Positions 1 through 4,589 of a stretch of 4,589 nt of DNA are shown piece by piece. The notes beneath the pieces were generated by a model. That model was not told where the DNA came from. It did not search any database and saw nothing but the letters and a program-made list of their open reading frames with translations. Numbering within the stretch: position 1 is the first letter of the stretch; the number at the start of each line of letters is the position of its first letter. The DNA comes from a virus (lineage: Duplodnaviria > Heunggongvirae > Uroviricota > Caudoviricetes). The stretch is from the IMG/VR virus record IMGVR_UViG_2529292977_000011. One strand, 5' to 3'. The position numbers and the translations under genes were made by a program.

Positions 1-344
1 TCCACATCTTTCACCAGCCGATCCCTCCGTTCGACGATCTCACGGTAATATTCAGAGCTGTGACTGCGCATACGGGCCACCAGCAGAGGCGGCATTGCCT
101 TTTCGATCGCCGGTAACAGAGCCTGAATTTTTTCAACAGCATCAGGGGTGTCTTTATCCAGCCAACGGAAAATTTTCTGGGTATTACGAGCCAGGGCTTC
201 CGGATGGCTGTCGTCGTACAGTTCCGGGAACGTCATCCCCAGCTCGAAATAAGTCCGGGCTATTTCAGCTGCAGGAACTTTCTCACCGTCCGGATAGGCC
301 CAGGCATTGATCGCCATGCGGATGTGCTCATGTTTGATTTTCAT
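1..344 (-). CDS. ydaT: YdaT-family (CII functional analogue) prophage regulatory protein; 5' portion only, ORF runs off the left edge of the window
   Basis: Minus-strand ATG at 344..342 preceded by a GGGGGA RBS. The frame is open to position 1 (about 114 codons: MKIKHEHIRMAINAWAYPDGEKVPAAEIARTYFELGMTFPELYDD...QKIFRWLDKDTPDAVEKIQALLPAIEKAMPPLLVARMRSH...). The MKIKHEHI start and the RWL/EKIQ..LLPAI pattern match my recollection of YdaT from lambdoid cryptic prophages. Start overlaps the upstream cro-like stop by 4 nt (ATGA). Not on the ORF track because it is truncated by the window edge. Confidence 0.6.
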   Translation of the reverse strand, partial: MKIKHEHIRMAINAWAYPDGEKVPAAEIARTYFELGMTFPELYDDSHPEALARNTQKIFRWLDKDTPDAVEKIQALLPAIEKAMPPLLVARMRSHSSEYYREIVERRDRLVKDV

Positions 345-568
345 GAATCCCCCTTTCCTTCGCCCTGAGTGGTATCCTTCTTTTTGTAAAGTTCTGGGTT
401 CAAAGATAATTTCCCCTTGGAGTATGCAGCAGCTTCCGCAGCCCTCCCCTTCGGAACTATTTCACCAGGACGCTTACGCCACATGTAAATAGCTTCGCGG
501 GTTATCCCATAAAAATCGGCAACCCTCTGAACAGAACCAAAAAACTGGACAAGTTCATCAACTCGCAT
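341..568 (-). CDS. Cro-like small HTH regulator (DicC/YdaS-type), 75 aa
   Basis: Minus-strand ATG at 568..566 with GGGAGG RBS 5 nt upstream (complement of 574..579). Product MRVDELVQFFGSVQRVADFYGITREAIYMWRKRPGEIVPKGRAAEAAAYSKGKL... has the FGS...helix-turn-helix...VPxGRA pattern of DicC/YdaS-like Cro proteins. Divergent from the repressor gene. The ORF track starts it at a TTG 12 nt upstream; I prefer the ATG with the RBS. Confidence 0.75.
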   Translation of the reverse strand: MRVDELVQFFGSVQRVADFYGITREAIYMWRKRPGEIVPKGRAAEAAAYSKGKLSLNPELYKKKDTTQGEGKGDS

Positions 569-662
569 TTTACCTCCCAAATCTAAGTATTTTTAGATTA
601 CAAGATAATTTTTTTTAGGTCAATGCAATCTAAAATAATTTATATTCAATTTGCAGGAGAAA
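569..662. promoter_or_regulatory. Divergent promoter/operator region between the cro-like and cI-like genes (OR-like)
   Basis: Perfect inverted repeat AATCTAA-N6-TTAGATT at 580..599; further AATCTAA half-site at 627..633; TTAGGT at 615..620. Minus-strand promoter candidate for the cro-like gene: -35 TTGACC (complement of 618..623), 17-nt spacer, -10 TAATCT (complement of 595..600), overlapping the operator. Plus-strand -10 candidates TAAAAT (631..636) or TATATT (641..646) with a poor -35, as expected for a PRM-type promoter. Confidence 0.55.
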
Positions 663-1310
663 ATGATGGAAAGCCTTGGCTTCAGGCTTAAGAGACTTAG
701 AAAAGATAAGGGGCTGACCCAAGTAGAACTGGGTAAGCTTTCAGGCGTGACTGGGGTTACTATAGGGTACTGGGAGAAAGATCTAAACGAACCAGGTAGC
801 AAAGCTCTAAGTAAGTTAGCCCAGGCATTAGGAACTACTGAGTCCTATCTCCTATATGGAGTATCGTCTCCTGAATTATCTTTTGTACAAAGTACCTCAG
901 GCACCAAGATCCCCTACCTTTCGTGGGGTGAGGCGATTTCTTTCCTAATCTTAAAAGGAGAGAAAACAATGGGAAATGTCGATAGAATCACCACATTCTT
1001 TGATGTCGAGGAAGGTGATTTTGCCGTTTCAATGCCTGATGACACAATGCATAACCCATCAGGATCACCGAGTATCCCAGTTGGTGCTACTGTGATCCTA
1101 AGGCCAGGAGAAAGTTATAAAAATGGCAGCATCGTCGCTGTAATAGTTCCGGATCCGCTTAAAAATGAACCATCTATGACTATAAAGAAATTAGTTATTG
1201 ATGGGAAGCTTGTGTATTTAAGCCCTCTCAATCCACGCTATCAGTCATCCTTACTTACACCAGAGTGTAAAATTGTTGCCGTAGCAAAAGGTGTACAGTT
1301 CAACTTATAA
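663..1310 (+). CDS. CI-like prophage repressor: N-terminal HTH (XRE family) plus C-terminal S24 LexA-like peptidase domain
   Basis: ATG at 663 (or 666) preceded by AGGAG; TAA at 1308..1310. The N-terminus GLTQVELGKLSGVTGVTIGYWEKDLNEPGSKALSKLAQALG is a classic HTH_3. The C-terminal half aligns by eye to lambda CI: conserved Ser in AVSM (cf. GNSM), conserved Lys in MTIKKLVID (cf. FTFKKLIRD), and LSPLNPRYQ (cf. LQPLNPQYP). Confidence 0.85.
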   Translation: MMESLGFRLKRLRKDKGLTQVELGKLSGVTGVTIGYWEKDLNEPGSKALSKLAQALGTTESYLLYGVSSPELSFVQSTSGTKIPYLSWGEAISFLILKGEKTMGNVDRITTFFDVEEGDFAVSMPDDTMHNPSGSPSIPVGATVILRPGESYKNGSIVAVIVPDPLKNEPSMTIKKLVIDGKLVYLSPLNPRYQSSLLTPECKIVAVAKGVQFNL

Positions 1311-1331
1311 CCCGCCACGTCCTTTACTTGA

Positions 1332-1356
1332 GGTCGGCAATGCCGACCTTTTTTTT
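1332..1356 (+). terminator. Rho-independent terminator after the cI-like gene
   Basis: GGTCGGC-AAT-GCCGACC perfect 7-bp GC-rich stem (1332..1348) followed directly by an 8-T run (1349..1356), 22 nt after the repressor stop codon. Confidence 0.7.
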
Positions 1357-1357
1357 A

Positions 1358-1405
1358 AATTAATCTAGATTTACCTTGACTGAAAAACTAAATACTTTTA
1401 GATTT
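1358..1405 (+). promoter_or_regulatory. Second operator cluster (OL-like) with an outward, pL-like promoter
   Basis: 10-bp perfect palindrome AATCTAGATT at 1362..1371; TACTTTTAGATT at 1393..1404 is 11/12 identical to TATTTTTAGATT at 588..599. -35 TTGACT (1376..1381), 17-nt spacer, -10 TAGATT (1399..1404) overlaps the operator half-site and points into the downstream plus-strand operon. Confidence 0.45.
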
Positions 1406-1584: not shown

Positions 1585-1737
1585 ATGGATATGCTCAATC
1601 TTGGCAACAATGAATCTCTGGTGTGCGGAGTATTCCCCAACCACGACGGCACGTTTACCGCGATGACGTATACCAGAAGTAAAACGTTTAAAACCGAAGC
1701 TGGCGCGCATCGCTGGTTAGCAAGAAACGCTAACTGA
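1585..1737 (+). CDS. Small hypothetical protein, 50 aa, first gene of the early-left operon (ydfA-like position)
   Basis: ATG at 1585 with GAGGT RBS 4 nt upstream (1576..1580); TGA at 1735..1737. Product MDMLNLGNNESLVCGVFPNHDGTFTAMTYTRSKTFKTEAGAHRWLARNAN. Below the length cutoff of the supplied ORF track. Size and position match ydfA of the K-12 Qin dic operon, but I cannot confirm sequence identity from memory. Confidence 0.5.
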   Translation: MDMLNLGNNESLVCGVFPNHDGTFTAMTYTRSKTFKTEAGAHRWLARNAN

Positions 1738-1801
1738 TTAGCGCCAGTAAAAACAGGTTTCCACAGGTTAATTTACCCTGAAAAGTCAGGGCATAACACG
1801 A

Positions 1802-1865
1802 AAGCGCACGGCGAAGTTAGTCTCTCTGTATAGGTCGTCGTTAAATTTAATTCGACCGTGCGCTT
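1802..1865 (+). repeat. Long-range inverted repeat (10-bp perfect arms) in the untranslated spacer upstream of the DicF-like sRNA
   Basis: AAGCGCACGG at 1802..1811 pairs with CCGTGCGCTT at 1856..1865; pairing can extend by CGAA (1812..1815) with TTCG (1851..1854) around a bulged A. No ORF with a credible start or RBS in this interval. Confidence 0.4.
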
Positions 1866-2000
1866 CTGGTTGTGGCAATCCGCGAAATGGCGCGGCGGTA
1901 AGTATGGCGGGGTTATTCCTTCCCCCGTTGAGGACACCGGGTTGTCAGGTTGACCATACGCTTAAGTGACACCCCAGCCACAACAACCTCTGTTATCACT

Positions 2001-2039
2001 TTTCTGGTGATTCGGCGGAAATGGATATCCGCCCTTTTT
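2001..2039 (+). ncRNA. dicF: DicF-like sRNA, compact variant (about 39 nt)
   Basis: TTTCTGGTGA at 2001..2010 matches the 5' end of E. coli DicF as I recall it (UUUCUGGUGACGUUUGGCGG...CUCUGCCGCCCUUUUU). It is followed by a GGCGGA/TCCGCC hairpin (2014..2033) and CTTTTT (2034..2039), an intrinsic terminator. It lies about 180 nt upstream of dicB, as in the Qin dic operon. The internal stem-loop of canonical 53-nt DicF is absent. The 5' end is inferred, not seen. Confidence 0.5.
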
Positions 2040-2217
2040 AAAGTGAATTTTGTGATGCGGTGAATGCGGCTATGCGCACGCGGAACAGTTAAAGCAGTAA
2101 GGCGGTCTTTTACTGGCGTAACGAGCATCAACTAACCCGACGTTAATTGTTAACTGGTTAACGTCACCTGGAGGCACCAGGCACTGCATCACAAAATTCA
2201 TTGTTGAGGACGCGATA

Positions 2218-2406
2218 ATGGAAACGTTATTACCAAACGTTAATACGTCTGAAGGTTGTTTTGATATTGGTGTTCTGCTCAGTAATAAAGCGTTTACTGA
2301 GGATGCCATTAATATGCGGAAATATGAGCCTTATCTGCTCAATGATAATTCCATTCTTTCCCGAATTGCCCTTATTAAACTTGGTATTTTCGGAGAACGT
2401 CAATGA
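2218..2406 (+). CDS. dicB: DicB-like cell-division inhibitor (MinC-activating small protein), 62 aa
   Basis: ATG at 2218 with GAGGA RBS (2206..2210, 7-nt spacing); TGA at 2404..2406. Product METLLPNVNTSEGCFDIGVLLSNKAFTEDAINMRKYEPYLL...; the N-terminal two thirds match my recollection of K-12 DicB (xxTLLPNVNTSEGCFEIGV...FTEDAIN.RK). Same length as DicB and same position after DicF. Confidence 0.8.
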   Translation: METLLPNVNTSEGCFDIGVLLSNKAFTEDAINMRKYEPYLLNDNSILSRIALIKLGIFGERQ

Positions 2407-2591
2407 CTTCAGCATTTGCACTGATGATGACGGTTTTTCTTATAACGGGTGAATCACAGAATGTGATTACCGGAATTTATGCCAGTAAAGAATCCTGCCT
2501 CCAGGCAAGAGACGAGCAAAAAATTTCTGGTGAATGCCTACCGGTAAAAAAAGTATCGCTGTACCTGAATAACGAAACACCGGCTGGATAA
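2403..2591 (+). CDS. ydfD: YdfD-like small membrane lysis protein, 62 aa
   Basis: ATG at 2403 overlaps the dicB stop (ATGA); GGAG RBS at 2392..2395. Product MTSAFALMMTVFLITGESQNVITGIYASKESCLQARDEQKISGECLPVKKVSLYLNNETPAG has a hydrophobic N-terminal segment. Position directly after dicB and size match ydfD of the Qin prophage. Confidence 0.7.
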   Translation: MTSAFALMMTVFLITGESQNVITGIYASKESCLQARDEQKISGECLPVKKVSLYLNNETPAG

Positions 2592-2683
2592 CCCTCCAGC
2601 CATATTAACACCATACCAACGGATTAAAAATGCCAGCAATGGCAGGGATTTGTTCACCCTTAAATCTGTAATGAGGTTTATCA

Positions 2684-3928
2684 ATGAGCACTGATAAAGA
2701 AGAATTTGCGCTATATTGCGAAGCAAAAAATGACAAAGTCAGAAAACGTCTGGGAATTAAAGGTGGTTTTTACTGGACTACAGCAAAAAAATTATCTGTT
2801 GCCATCTCCCGCTGCATTACCGCAATGGATGACAACGATTATGATGAAGACGACTTTAAAAAACCCGTTCGCGTCCATTTACCCGTTGTGAATGACCTTC
2901 CACCTGAAGGCGTGTTTGATACCGAATTCTGCAACCGATACGAAAAAGGCGGGGAAGATGGCATTACAATGGTATTTATCGCGCCCTCTCCCTCCGTGCA
3001 GGAGAAACCAGCCAGTACTGACAATACCAACGTCAACGGCGAAGACATGACGGAGATTGAGGAGAATATGCTCCTGCCGGTTTCTGGTCAGGAGCTGCCC
3101 ATTCGCTGGCTTGCGCAACACGGCAGCGAAAAACCAGTAACGCACGTTGCACGGGAAGAACTTCAGGCATTACATATAGCACGGGCGGAAGAACTGCCGG
3201 CTGTTACTGCCCTGGCCATTTCTCACAAAACAAAGCTGCTCGACCCGCTGGAGATTCGCGACCTTCACAAACTGGTACGCGACACTGACAAAGTTTTCCC
3301 TAATCCCGGTAATTCAGACCTGGGACTGATAACTGCTTTTTTCGAGGCATACCTGGACGCTGACTACACTGATCGGGGTCTGCTGACAAAAGAGTGGATG
3401 AAAGGAAATCGTGTTTCGCGTATCACCCGTACGGCTTCCGGTGCAAATGCCGGTGGCGGGAACAAAACCGATCGCAATCCGAATTTAGTACACACCTTCG
3501 ATACGCTGGATGTGGAGATTGCAGCAGCCACACTTCCGATGGATTTTAATATTTATGAAATTCCGGGCAGCGTTTATCGTCGCGCAAAAGAAATCGTCCT
3601 GAAAAGAGAAAGTCCGTTCAAAGAATGGTCCGCAGCACTTCGCGCAACCCCGGGTATTCTGGACTATTCCCGCGCCGCTATTTTTGCACTTATCCGGAGC
3701 GCTCACCCTGAGTTTTATCACTACCCGGGACGCCTTCAGGGGTATATCAACGCCTACTTAACGGAGACTGATCACGAGAACCCCAGCAAGGAAACTCTCA
3801 CTGCTGCACGACATACACCGGAAAAAGATATCCTGGAAGAAGTTAACCGCGAACTGTCTGCTAAGCAGGAAACAGAAGAAGAAAATGATGAAGAAAAACC
3901 GCAACCATCTTGCGCAATGGCAGAATGA
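2684..3928 (+). CDS. Uncharacterised 414-aa prophage protein with acidic N- and C-terminal tracts; possibly a full-length YdfE-like protein
   Basis: ATG at 2684 with GAGG RBS (2673..2676, 7-nt spacing); TGA at 3926..3928. Long uninterrupted ORF with only short antisense ORFs opposite. Acidic clusters DDNDYDEDD (near N-terminus) and EEENDEEK (C-terminus); glycine-rich SGANAGGGNKTD segment. I recognise no catalytic or DNA-binding motif. Confidence 0.8.
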   Translation: MSTDKEEFALYCEAKNDKVRKRLGIKGGFYWTTAKKLSVAISRCITAMDDNDYDEDDFKKPVRVHLPVVNDLPPEGVFDTEFCNRYEKGGEDGITMVFIAPSPSVQEKPASTDNTNVNGEDMTEIEENMLLPVSGQELPIRWLAQHGSEKPVTHVAREELQALHIARAEELPAVTALAISHKTKLLDPLEIRDLHKLVRDTDKVFPNPGNSDLGLITAFFEAYLDADYTDRGLLTKEWMKGNRVSRITRTASGANAGGGNKTDRNPNLVHTFDTLDVEIAAATLPMDFNIYEIPGSVYRRAKEIVLKRESPFKEWSAALRATPGILDYSRAAIFALIRSAHPEFYHYPGRLQGYINAYLTETDHENPSKETLTAARHTPEKDILEEVNRELSAKQETEEENDEEKPQPSCAMAE

Positions 3929-4461
3929 TAATCAGAAGAAATCTGGCAAAAGACCGTTTTACAGTACCAAAAACACAGGCGGGAACCAATCGTGTGATTC
4001 ACCTTATTAAGCCCGCAATCGACGCTCTCCGGAGTCAGATGGCACTAACGAGACTGAGCAAAGAGCATATCATCGATGTTCACCTCAGAGAATTCGGCAG
4101 AACAGAGAAACAAAAATGTACCTTTGTTTTTCAACCTGAAGTGTCAGCGAAAGTAAAAAATTATGGCGACCATTTTACCGTTGACTCAATAAGGCAGATG
4201 TGGGACGCAGCGGTAAAGCGTGCCGGAATCCGCCATCGCAAATCGTATCAGTCGAGACACACTTATGCCTGCTGGTCGTTAACAGCAGGAGCTAACCCGG
4301 CATTCATTGCAAACCAGATGGGCCATGCAGATGCGCAAATGGTGTTTCAGGTGTACGGGAAATGGATGTCAGAAAATAATAATGCGCAGGTAACGCTGTT
4401 AAATACACAGTTAAGCGAGTTTGCCCCAACCATGCCCCATAACGAAGCGATGAAAAGTTAA
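3910..4461 (+). pseudogene. Tyrosine recombinase (phage integrase) remnant: C-terminal catalytic half only
   Basis: Product has the integrase beta-hairpin Lys region (FTVPKTQAGTNRVIHLIKPAIDAL), the HxxR motif (SRHTYA), MGH and the nucleophile Tyr region (VYGKW). It is only about 180 aa: the arm-binding and core-binding domains and the box I Arg are missing, because the upstream sequence belongs to the 414-aa ORF in another frame. Possible starts are TTG 3910 or ATG 3925, the latter overlapping the upstream TGA as ATGA; no obvious RBS. TAA at 4459..4461. Confidence 0.7.
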
Positions 4462-4589
4462 TTTTTTATTTATCAATTAGTTAGATTGAATGACTCTTGA
4501 AATCCATAATTCATAGATGTTTTTTACTATTCTGTGGGTTTTTGGGTGTTTTCTAAGTTTTTTCAGATGGTTGTATTTTTTCTAAAAAT

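What the first reader, a model, noticed from the sequence alone, without database searches (positions are those of the whole stretch)
2218..2591. Translationally coupled dicB-ydfD pair: division inhibitor plus lysis protein
The dicB stop and the ydfD start overlap as ATGA, so the two 62-aa proteins should be made together. From the literature, DicB blocks Z-ring formation through MinC and also protects cells from phages that use ManYZ for DNA entry, while YdfD causes lysis that depends on ongoing division. The coupling therefore resembles a toxin/modulator or exclusion module rather than two independent genes. The DicB-like C-terminus here (..LLNDNSILSRIALIKLGIFGERQ) may diverge from the K-12 protein, but I cannot verify that from memory.
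Basis: partly seen in the sequence, partly recalled or inferred. Interest (0 to 1): 0.5.

Follow-up and report, generated by a model that had tools for sequence, protein, structure and literature searches.

The report
Known prophage dicB–ydfD gene pair
This is an ordinary, already annotated copy of the prophage gene pair dicB (cell-division inhibitor) and ydfD (lysis protein), in the form carried by E. coli O157:H7 prophages, and its four-base stop/start overlap is the same as in the well-studied K-12 copy.

Summary
The two 62-codon ORFs are at 2218-2406 and 2403-2591, and they share ATGA at 2403-2406. ORF 1 is DicB (Pfam PF05358, 1e-35; NCBIfam above its cut-off). ORF 2 is a YdfD/DUF1482 protein (3e-15).

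Against K-12, DicB is 61% identical overall: 80% over residues 1-35 and 37% over residues 36-62. YdfD is 45% identical. So the suspected C-terminal divergence is real. It is a known allele, though: the same DicB protein, and a YdfD differing by one residue, are annotated in O157:H7 genomes, and about 1000 complete E. coli genomes carry this form of the pair.

The overlap, the shared operon and the rescue of YdfD lysis by DicB are already published for K-12.

In this window the pair sits in the early-left operon of a decayed Qin-like lambdoid prophage. It lies downstream of a cI-like repressor, an operator-flanked promoter, ydfA and a shortened DicF-like RNA.

Both genes are under purifying selection (dN/dS 0.1-0.3). 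ydfD has its own Shine-Dalgarno motif inside the dicB tail, so co-expression is likely but strict coupling is unproven.

Comparative data weaken the idea of a dedicated two-gene module. YdfD homologues overlap unrelated upstream ORFs in other phages, and dicB and ydfD alleles reassort. Low interest; already known.

The parts
651..1310 (+). cI-like prophage repressor (HTH plus Peptidase_S24). It occupies the position of K-12 DicA but is longer and carries the self-cleavage domain.
   Evidence: Pfam HTH_3 2e-12 and Peptidase_S24 5e-11; only the HTH part matches the DicA model; annotated 'LexA family protein' in O157:H7.
1330..1350 (+). Terminator-like hairpin after the repressor gene.
   Evidence: 9-bp stem followed by a T run.
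1356..1404 (+). Early-left promoter-like site (TTGACT 1376-1381, 17-nt spacer, TAGATT 1399-1404) flanked by and overlapping two operator-like repeats (1356-1373, 1385-1404). Equivalent of K-12 dicBp.
   Evidence: Promoter scan; the repeats are related to the palindromes at 580-599 and 627-646 between the cro-like and repressor genes; the K-12 arrangement is described in PMC10448788. Function is inferred.
1585..1737 (+). ydfA-like gene (DUF1391), first gene of the operon.
   Evidence: Pfam DUF1391 1.3e-28.
2001..2039 (+). Short DicF-like RNA gene (39 nt) with an intrinsic terminator at 2014-2033. It keeps the DicF 5' end and lacks about 19 nt of the 3' part.
   Evidence: Alignment to K-12 dicF; terminator scan; no Rfam DicF match even at E<=10; the same short form, allowing single-base differences, is in about a dozen related sequences including O157:H7.
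2206..2210 (+). Shine-Dalgarno GAGGA of dicB, 7 nt before the ATG.
   Evidence: Read from the sequence; lies in the block 2190-2264 that is about 99.4% conserved across 52 unique alleles.
2218..2406 (+). dicB, 62-aa cell-division inhibitor, O157:H7-type allele.
   Evidence: Pfam 1.3e-35, NCBIfam 7.4e-33; 65% identity over 55 aa to K-12 DicB; protein identical to the dicB product annotated in O157:H7 PV15-279.
2392..2395 (+). Shine-Dalgarno GGAG of ydfD, encoded by dicB codons G59-E60, 7 nt before the ydfD ATG.
   Evidence: Read from the sequence; a purine-rich GGAG/AGGA/GGGG motif sits at this distance in every junction type seen; G59 is unchanged in all 13 distinct DicB proteins seen (12 plus the L093 variant).
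2403..2406 (+). ATGA overlap: ydfD start and dicB stop.
2403..2591 (+). ydfD homologue (DUF1482), 62 aa. It has an N-terminal hydrophobic segment (residues 3-15) and the two family cysteines (C32, C45).
   Evidence: Pfam DUF1482 2.9e-15; 45% identity to K-12 YdfD; all 12 invariant columns of a 6-sequence family alignment are kept; hydropathy profile.
2582..2601 (+). 7-bp hairpin spanning the ydfD stop codon. Not conserved in K-12; role unknown.
   Evidence: Fold of 2570-2660, z = -3.84; scan.
2631..2654 (+). Conserved small hairpin TGCCAGCAATGGCA followed by GGGATTTGTT. Possible 3' end of the ydfA-to-ydfD transcript.
   Evidence: Terminator-like site; window 2630-2678 is 95.9% identical to K-12 although the flanks have diverged; a transcript ending after ydfD was seen in K-12 (PMC10448788). 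The link between the two is inferred.
2684..3928 (+). ydfE-like N-terminal half of RecE/exonuclease VIII (414 aa), truncated.
   Evidence: Matches positions 1-409 of the 877-position exoVIII model; the intact O157:H7 prophage gene is 2472 bp.

Best explanation
The region is the dicB-ydfD pair of a decayed Qin-like lambdoid prophage, in the allelic form common in E. coli O157:H7 prophages. The two genes are the last small genes of the early-left operon: promoter at about 1376-1404, then ydfA, a DicF-like RNA with a leaky terminator, dicB and ydfD. A cI-like repressor encoded just upstream keeps this operon off. When the repressor is lost, read-through transcripts carry both genes. DicB (shown for K-12, inferred here) binds MinC, takes it to the septum through ZipA, stops Z-ring formation, and through the same MinC interaction blocks ManYZ-dependent phage DNA entry. 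YdfD (shown for K-12, inferred here) is a small protein with a hydrophobic N-terminus. It lyses dividing cells and is reported to act by inhibiting IspG, and its lysis is prevented while DicB blocks division. ydfD is translated from a start codon that overlaps the dicB stop. Its Shine-Dalgarno motif is written into the last codons of dicB, a tail reported to be dispensable for DicB activity. The two proteins are therefore made from one mRNA in a linked ratio, either by ribosomes that re-initiate after dicB or by fresh initiation at GGAG. The overlap is the usual tight packing of phage early genes, not a special device.
For: Homology. Same junction in K-12. Annotated identical or near-identical proteins in O157:H7, in the same gene order (YdaT-like, Cro-like, LexA-family repressor, DUF1391, dicB, DUF1482, exonuclease). 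About 1018 complete E. coli genomes hold at least 80% of the 491-nt query 2150-2640. Purifying selection on both genes. Overlap plus an SD-like motif kept in 86 of 89 sequences and in all junction types. Promoter, operators and terminators. All 20 phage records with DicB also have the YdfD homologue next to it. Literature: same operon with partial overlap, and DicB offsets YdfD lysis (PMC8835842); a ydfABC-dicFB-ydfD transcript detected (PMC10448788); MinC dependence of division block and phage exclusion (PMC6832061); the DicB N-terminus is essential and the last 8 residues are dispensable (PMC4967827). Here residues 1-17 differ from K-12 only by K2E and E16D, and L5 is kept.
Against: No experiment exists on this allele. 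Residues 36-62 of DicB are only 37% identical to K-12, and C-terminal deletions of 12 or more residues weakened K-12 DicB (PMC4967827), so equal activity is assumed, not shown. K2E is a charge reversal at a position where only A, G and R were tried. Strict translational coupling is not supported by any RNA structure. The DicF terminator (2014-2033) and the decayed state of the prophage (truncated recE, integrase fragment) leave it open how much the pair is ever expressed.
Confidence: 0.85

Rival explanations
1. The two genes are functionally independent cargo. The overlap is only compact phage gene packing, and DicB's rescue of YdfD lysis is an indirect by-product of stopping division rather than an evolved pairing.
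For: DUF1482 genes in Klebsiella phages overlap an unrelated 37-aa ORF by ATGA, and in Salmonella and Citrobacter phages an unrelated 66-aa ORF by TGATG. DUF1482 occurs in more genera than DicB. A window-type DicB sits next to a K-12-like YdfD in L093. A second ATGA overlap lies in the same window at 341-344. SulA also prevents YdfD lysis (PMC8835842).
Against: In all 20 phage records and all 88 fetched loci with dicB, a ydfD homologue or its remnant follows directly, though the loci were selected through dicB. Both genes are under purifying selection.
Confidence: 0.4
2. The pair is a toxin-antitoxin-like or abortive-infection module, with YdfD as toxin and DicB as antidote, which excludes superinfecting phages or stabilises the prophage.
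For: The antidote-first gene order with a 4-nt overlap resembles type II TA operons. DicB prevents YdfD lysis and gives ManYZ-dependent phage exclusion (PMC8835842, PMC6832061).
Against: DicB is itself lethal when over-produced and has no DNA-binding or antitoxin family match. No PADLOC defence model matches either protein. The operon is controlled by the prophage repressor, not by the pair itself (PMC10448788). Alleles reassort. Three loci lost the ydfD start while retaining dicB, but no locus with the reverse was looked for.
Confidence: 0.1
3. The ORFs are decaying remnants of a dead prophage and make no functional product.
For: The prophage is degraded: recE is cut to 414 aa and overlaps an integrase C-terminal fragment. 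Several related loci carry truncated or frameshifted ydfD.
Against: Both ORFs are full length with all family-invariant residues. dN/dS is 0.11-0.30. Start codons and SD motifs are intact.
Confidence: 0.07

Closest known systems
dicB-ydfD of the Qin cryptic prophage, E. coli K-12 (b1575-b1576)
   Same: Same two families, same order, same CAATGA stop/start overlap, and the same operon layout (ydfA, dicF, dicB, ydfD, ydfE-like recE fragment, integrase remnant). The integrase end of the window also matches the K-12 intQ end at 90.8%.
   Different: DicB is 61% and YdfD 45% identical. DNA identity collapses after dicB codon 17 and returns about 50 nt before ydfE. ydfB and ydfC are absent. DicF is a 39-nt short form. 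The repressor is a cI-like HTH+S24 protein of 219 aa (as listed from a TTG start) instead of 135-aa DicA.
dicB / DUF1482 pair of E. coli O157:H7 lambdoid prophages (e.g. strain PV15-279, WP_000449168.1 and WP_000199485.1)
   Same: 99.2% DNA identity over 2150-2640. The DicB protein is identical and YdfD differs by one residue (M8V). Same neighbours on the left side and the same short DicF form.
   Different: That prophage keeps a full-length exonuclease gene, a DUF4224 gene and most of the integrase. The window has a deletion joining the recE N-terminal half to the integrase C-terminus.
Lambda Kil and other early-left (PL) operon division inhibitors
   Same: A small host-takeover protein, expressed from the repressor-controlled leftward early operon, that blocks FtsZ ring formation on induction (established knowledge; not tested here).
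   Different: No sequence relationship. DicB acts through MinC and ZipA rather than on FtsZ/ZipA directly.
Single-gene lysis proteins that block envelope precursor synthesis (phiX174 E on MraY, Qbeta A2 on MurA, M LysM on MurJ)
   Same: YdfD is reported to lyse only growing, dividing cells by starving wall synthesis, via IspG (PMC8835842).
   Different: YdfD sits in the early operon of a tailed temperate phage, which normally has its own holin-endolysin lysis system. Its role in phage release is therefore doubtful.

Membership tests
DicB (Pfam PF05358; NCBIfam NF049927) | Full-length match to the family profile above the curated cut-off | tested here: met
   Pfam 121.4 bits against a cut-off of 27, residues 1-62 of 62; NCBIfam 112.2 bits against a cut-off of 100.
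DicB (Pfam PF05358; NCBIfam NF049927) | Intact N-terminal segment needed for activity (residue 2 present, L5, first ~14 residues) | tested here: met
   Residues 1-17 are identical to K-12 except K2E and E16D, and L5 is kept. The requirement is described in PMC4967827. The K2E substitution itself was not among those tested there.
DicB (Pfam PF05358; NCBIfam NF049927) | Location in the repressor-controlled dicBF-type operon downstream of dicF | tested here: met
DicB (Pfam PF05358; NCBIfam NF049927) | MinC-dependent inhibition of cell division | not testable with these tools
   Needs expression in wild-type and minC mutant hosts.
YdfD / DUF1482 (Pfam PF07358) | Match to the family profile above the cut-off | tested here: met
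   56.3 bits against a cut-off of 25, profile positions 1-57 of 57; PHROG 1092 at 6.9e-34; 45% identity to K-12 YdfD. No NCBIfam model matched this protein.
YdfD / DUF1482 (Pfam PF07358) | Two conserved cysteines and an N-terminal hydrophobic segment | tested here: met
   C32 and C45 are invariant in a 6-sequence alignment from four genera. Hydropathy exceeds 2 over residues 3-15. The cysteines are noted in PMC8835842.
YdfD / DUF1482 (Pfam PF07358) | Division-dependent lysis; IspG binding | not testable with these tools
   Reported only for the K-12 protein (PMC8835842).
Translationally coupled gene pair (strict sense) | Stop codon of the upstream gene overlaps or abuts the start codon of the downstream gene | tested here: met
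   ATGA at 2403-2406; kept as ATGA or GTGA in 86 of 89 sequences.
Translationally coupled gene pair (strict sense) | Downstream initiation depends on upstream translation (no usable free SD, or an RBS hidden in structure that the upstream ribosome opens) | tested here: inconclusive
   A GGAG lies 7 nt upstream of the ATG. The predicted local structure is no more stable than in shuffled sequences (z = -1.3 for the window, 0.03 for K-12). Dependence itself needs a dicB nonsense-mutant test.
Type II toxin-antitoxin or anti-phage defence module | Match to known toxin, antitoxin or defence-system protein families | tested here: not met
   No PADLOC hit for either protein at E<=0.1. Pfam and NCBIfam give only DicB and DUF1482.
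Type II toxin-antitoxin or anti-phage defence module | Antitoxin binds the toxin, is labile, and autoregulates the operon | not testable with these tools
   No data. In K-12 the operon is regulated by DicA and DicC, not by DicB (PMC10448788).

The most novel reading that the evidence does not exclude
The end of dicB may be kept mainly for ydfD. The last ~8 codons, dispensable for DicB activity in K-12, carry ydfD's Shine-Dalgarno motif (Gly59, unchanged in all 13 DicB variants seen) and its start codon. If so, the ratio of division inhibitor to lysis protein is hard-wired at this junction. In addition, the O157-type DicB C-terminal half (37% identical to K-12) could give a different partner range (ZipA, ManYZ) and hence a different phage-exclusion spectrum from K-12 DicB.
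Probability: 0.15. Interest if true: 0.35.

Novelty: already known. Interest (0 to 1): 0.12.

Why it matters
It matters little as a discovery. The gene pair, its overlap and the antagonism between the two proteins are already described for K-12, and this exact allele is annotated in many O157:H7 genomes.

Its modest value is as a natural variant set for testing three questions:
- Which part of DicB determines its MinC, ZipA and ManYZ effects. The N-terminal 17 residues are almost fixed while the C-terminal half is replaced.
- Whether the dicB/ydfD junction sets a fixed protein ratio. The natural ATGA-to-ATAA alleles remove the ydfD start without touching DicB.
- How dicB behaves in prophages whose DicF has lost the part that pairs with ftsZ.

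Tried and rejected
- **Rfam.** No family reached its gathering score anywhere in the window. A permissive search of 1750-2700 found no DicF match. It gave only a sub-threshold STnc100 hit over the dicB leader (29.5 bits against 47) and chance-level hits.
- **RNA structure hiding the ydfD start.** Not significant in the window or in K-12. The dicB start region was also not significant (z = 0.66).
- **Co-evolution of the DicB C-terminus with YdfD.** Rejected, because L093 combines a window-type DicB with a K-12-like YdfD.
- **Defence-system models.** PADLOC gave no hit for DicB or YdfD.
- **Solved structures.** None for either protein. I did not run structure prediction, because the output would not decide any question here.
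- **Source of the window.** No complete E. coli genome matches the whole 4.6 kb. The best cover 96-98% at about 93% identity in pieces. L004 matches 1776-4589 at 99.4%. The window is a mosaic that I could not assign to a strain.
- **Species-level scan for DicB.** Only Escherichia and Shigella, plus one MAG labelled Veillonella that I take to be contamination. The scan was limited to two exact peptide patterns.
- **Masuda et al. 2016 (ydfD lysis paper).** Not held in the library. Its results are cited second-hand from PMC8835842.
- **Second TTTCTGGTGA.** A second copy of the DicF 5' decamer lies inside ydfD at 2524-2533, on the same strand. I treated it as chance.

Full report
**1. The observation**

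The window holds two same-strand ORFs of 62 codons each, at 2218-2406 and 2403-2591. The sequence at 2401-2406 is caATGA. The ATG of the second ORF and the TGA of the first therefore share three bases. The coordinates, lengths and quoted C-terminal peptide in the finding are all correct.

**2. Identity**

- ORF 1 matches the DicB family over its whole length: Pfam PF05358, 121.4 bits, E = 1.3e-35; NCBIfam NF049927, 112.2 bits against a cut-off of 100.
- ORF 2 matches DUF1482, the family of K-12 YdfD: 56.3 bits, E = 2.9e-15.
- I fetched the K-12 Qin region for direct comparison. DicB is 65% identical over 55 aligned residues and 61% over all 62. YdfD is 45% identical over 62 residues.
Residues 1-35 are 28/35 identical and residues 36-62 only 10/27.
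- Both genes are under purifying selection against close alleles, with dN/dS of 0.11-0.28 for dicB and 0-0.3 (one value of 0.6) for ydfD. They are not decaying ORFs.

**3. This is a known allele**

- A 491-nt query around the pair (2150-2640) matches E. coli O157:H7 genomes at 99.2%. There the genes are annotated 'cell division inhibition protein DicB' and 'DUF1482 family protein'.
- 1018 of 5426 complete genomes hold at least 80% of that query. Most other genomes, K-12 included, match only the first 163 nt.
- In O157:H7 PV15-279 the DicB protein is identical to the window's, and YdfD differs by one residue.
- The published literature already reports dicBF loci in several O157:H7 prophages (PMC5069750).

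**4. Context**

The window is the immunity and early-left region of a Qin-like lambdoid prophage:

| Feature | Coordinates | Evidence |
|---|---|---|
| YdaT-like gene | 3-344, minus strand | |
| Cro/DicC-like gene | 341-580, minus strand | |
| cI-like repressor (HTH + Peptidase_S24) | 651-1310 | |
| Terminator-like hairpin | 1330-1350 | |
| Promoter-like site TTGACT/TAGATT, overlapped by operator-like repeats | 1376-1404 | |
| ydfA/DUF1391 | 1585-1737 | |
| DicF-like element with terminator | 2001-2039 | |
| dicB | 2218-2406 | |
| ydfD | 2403-2591 | |
| N-terminal half of RecE/exonuclease VIII | 2684-3928 | |
| Integrase C-terminal fragment | 3910-4461 | |

- The operator-like repeats at the promoter are related to the palindromes at 580-599 and 627-646.
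- The integrase end matches the K-12 intQ end at 90.8%.
- The intact O157:H7 prophage has the same order but keeps a full-length exonuclease gene, a DUF4224 gene and an integrase. The window is therefore a deleted, cryptic version. L004 shares the same deletion at 99.4%.
- The layout matches what is described for K-12: DicA and DicC stand for CI and Cro, and dicBp stands for PL. A ydfABC-dicFB-ydfD transcript has been detected there (PMC10448788).

**5. How the pair most likely works**

The functions are inferred by homology from K-12 work.

- DicB binds MinC and is targeted through ZipA to the septum, where it stops Z-ring formation. The same MinC interaction is needed for exclusion of phages that enter through ManYZ (PMC6832061).
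- YdfD lyses cells. The lysis is prevented by DicB or SulA, and the reported target is IspG (PMC8835842).
- The DicB N-terminus is essential and the last 8 residues are dispensable (PMC4967827). In the window, residues 1-17 differ from K-12 only by K2E and E16D, and L5 is kept.
- YdfD keeps all 12 columns that are invariant in an alignment of six family members from Escherichia, Klebsiella and Salmonella sources. These include both cysteines. It also keeps the hydrophobic N-terminus.

**6. Translational coupling**

- The ATGA or GTGA junction is kept in 86 of 89 related sequences, across alleles whose synonymous sites are saturated.
- This is weak evidence for coupling. Each gene's own stop and start are under selection, and changing the geometry would need an indel.
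- ydfD has its own GGAG 7 nt upstream of the ATG. A purine-rich motif sits at this distance in every junction type.
- Gly59 of DicB, whose codon supplies this motif, is unchanged in all 13 distinct DicB proteins seen, although it lies in the dispensable tail.
- Local RNA folding gives no significant structure hiding the site (z = -1.3 in the window, 0.03 in K-12).
- Co-transcription and linked translation are therefore likely. Strict dependence on dicB translation is undecided.

**7. Is it a dedicated two-gene module?**

Evidence for a pairing:
- In all 20 phage records with DicB, the YdfD homologue is adjacent.

Evidence against a dedicated module:
- DUF1482 has a wider host range than DicB. 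In Klebsiella phages it overlaps an unrelated 37-aa ORF by ATGA. In Salmonella SW-37 and Citrobacter Omnitron it overlaps an unrelated 66-aa ORF by TGATG.
- L093 joins a window-type DicB to a K-12-like YdfD.
- Three loci carry ATAA at the junction. This keeps the dicB stop and removes the ydfD start.
- The same window has another ATGA overlap at 341-344.
- Neither protein matches a defence-system model.

I conclude that the overlap is ordinary phage gene packing. DicB's rescue of YdfD lysis may be an indirect effect of arrested division, as SulA produces the same rescue.

**8. Comparison with what is known, and verdict**

The closest known systems are the K-12 Qin dicB-ydfD pair and its O157:H7 prophage copies. 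All sequence-testable family features are met, and the functional features cannot be tested here. The partial overlap, the shared operon and the antagonism between the two proteins are already published (PMC8835842). The finding is correct but already known, and its interest is low.

**9. Side observations**

These are listed separately in the report: the short DicF form, the frozen 5' block of dicB, the SOS-type repressor, the natural ydfD start-loss alleles, the conserved hairpin after ydfD, and the presence of dicB-ydfD in sequenced phages.

Noticed in passing
window 2001-2039: The DicF-like RNA gene is a 39-nt short form. It keeps the DicF 5' end (TTTCTGGTGA) and a terminator hairpin but lacks about 19 nt of the 3' part. 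In K-12 that part pairs with ftsZ and pykA mRNA (PMC5069750). It gives no Rfam DicF match even at E<=10. The same short form, allowing single-base differences, occurs in about a dozen of the 89 related sequences, including O157:H7 PV15-279. In such prophages DicB may be the only division inhibitor of the operon.
   Followed up: partly
window 2190-2264 (dicB ribosome-binding region and codons 1-16): This block is about 99.4% identical across 52 unique alleles. Against K-12, codons 1-17 have dS = 0 with two non-synonymous changes, while codons 18-62 have dS of about 1.7. So either there is a nucleotide-level constraint or this is a favoured recombination joint. In L093 a dicB 5' fragment ending in this block is followed by an inserted Rha gene and then a second complete dicB, which favours the joint. 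A sub-threshold Rfam STnc100 hit covers 2032-2250. Local folding is not significant.
   Followed up: partly
window 651-1310: The repressor is a 219-aa (as listed from a TTG start) cI-like protein with a Peptidase_S24 domain, not the 135-aa DicA of K-12, which lacks that domain. The dicB-ydfD operon here may therefore be inducible by the SOS response.
   Followed up: no
L021, L024, L030 (dicB/ydfD junction): Natural ATGA-to-ATAA alleles. A single G-to-A change keeps the dicB stop (TAA) and destroys the ydfD start, while the rest of ydfD is intact. Several other loci carry truncated or frameshifted ydfD while dicB is intact in all 88. The loci were selected through dicB, however, so this asymmetry is not evidence of differential loss.
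   Followed up: partly
L089, L090 (Klebsiella phages) 2391-2692; L091, L092 (Salmonella, Citrobacter phages) 2301-2698: DUF1482/YdfD homologues sit at the same place in the early-left operon, between the repressor and the exonuclease gene, without any DicB. They are preceded by unrelated small ORFs of unknown function (PHROG 22279 and PHROG 3722) whose stops overlap the DUF1482 start.
   Followed up: partly
window 2630-2678: A short intergenic block upstream of the recE-like gene is 95.9% identical to K-12 although both flanks have diverged. It holds a 5-bp hairpin followed by GGGATTTGTT. It lies roughly where the ydfABC-dicFB-ydfD transcript reported for K-12 (PMC10448788) would end. I did not locate the transcription start precisely, so this link is an estimate.
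   Followed up: no
window 3910-3928: The truncated recE-like ORF (414 aa, N-terminal half of exonuclease VIII) overlaps an ORF for only the C-terminal part of a tyrosine integrase. This is a deletion that removed the rest of recE, the excisionase-region genes and the integrase N-terminus. L004 has the same junction at 99.4% identity.
   Followed up: partly
window 341-344 (minus strand): The cro/dicC-like gene and the ydaT-like gene also overlap by ATGA.
   Followed up: yes
phage records (e.g. mEp460_ev081, Tritos, HannyBb, PPompW phages): DicB and YdfD are present together in 20 sequenced phage records. A 2016 paper reported no DicB hit among about 2000 phage genomes (PMC5069750). The pair is therefore not confined to defective prophages.
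   Followed up: no
L084 (contig JAGZPX010000007.1): A contig labelled as a Veillonella parvula metagenome-assembled genome carries a K-12-like dicBF region. It is 83.7% identical to the window over 1781-3923. I take this to be a binning contaminant from Escherichia.
   Followed up: no
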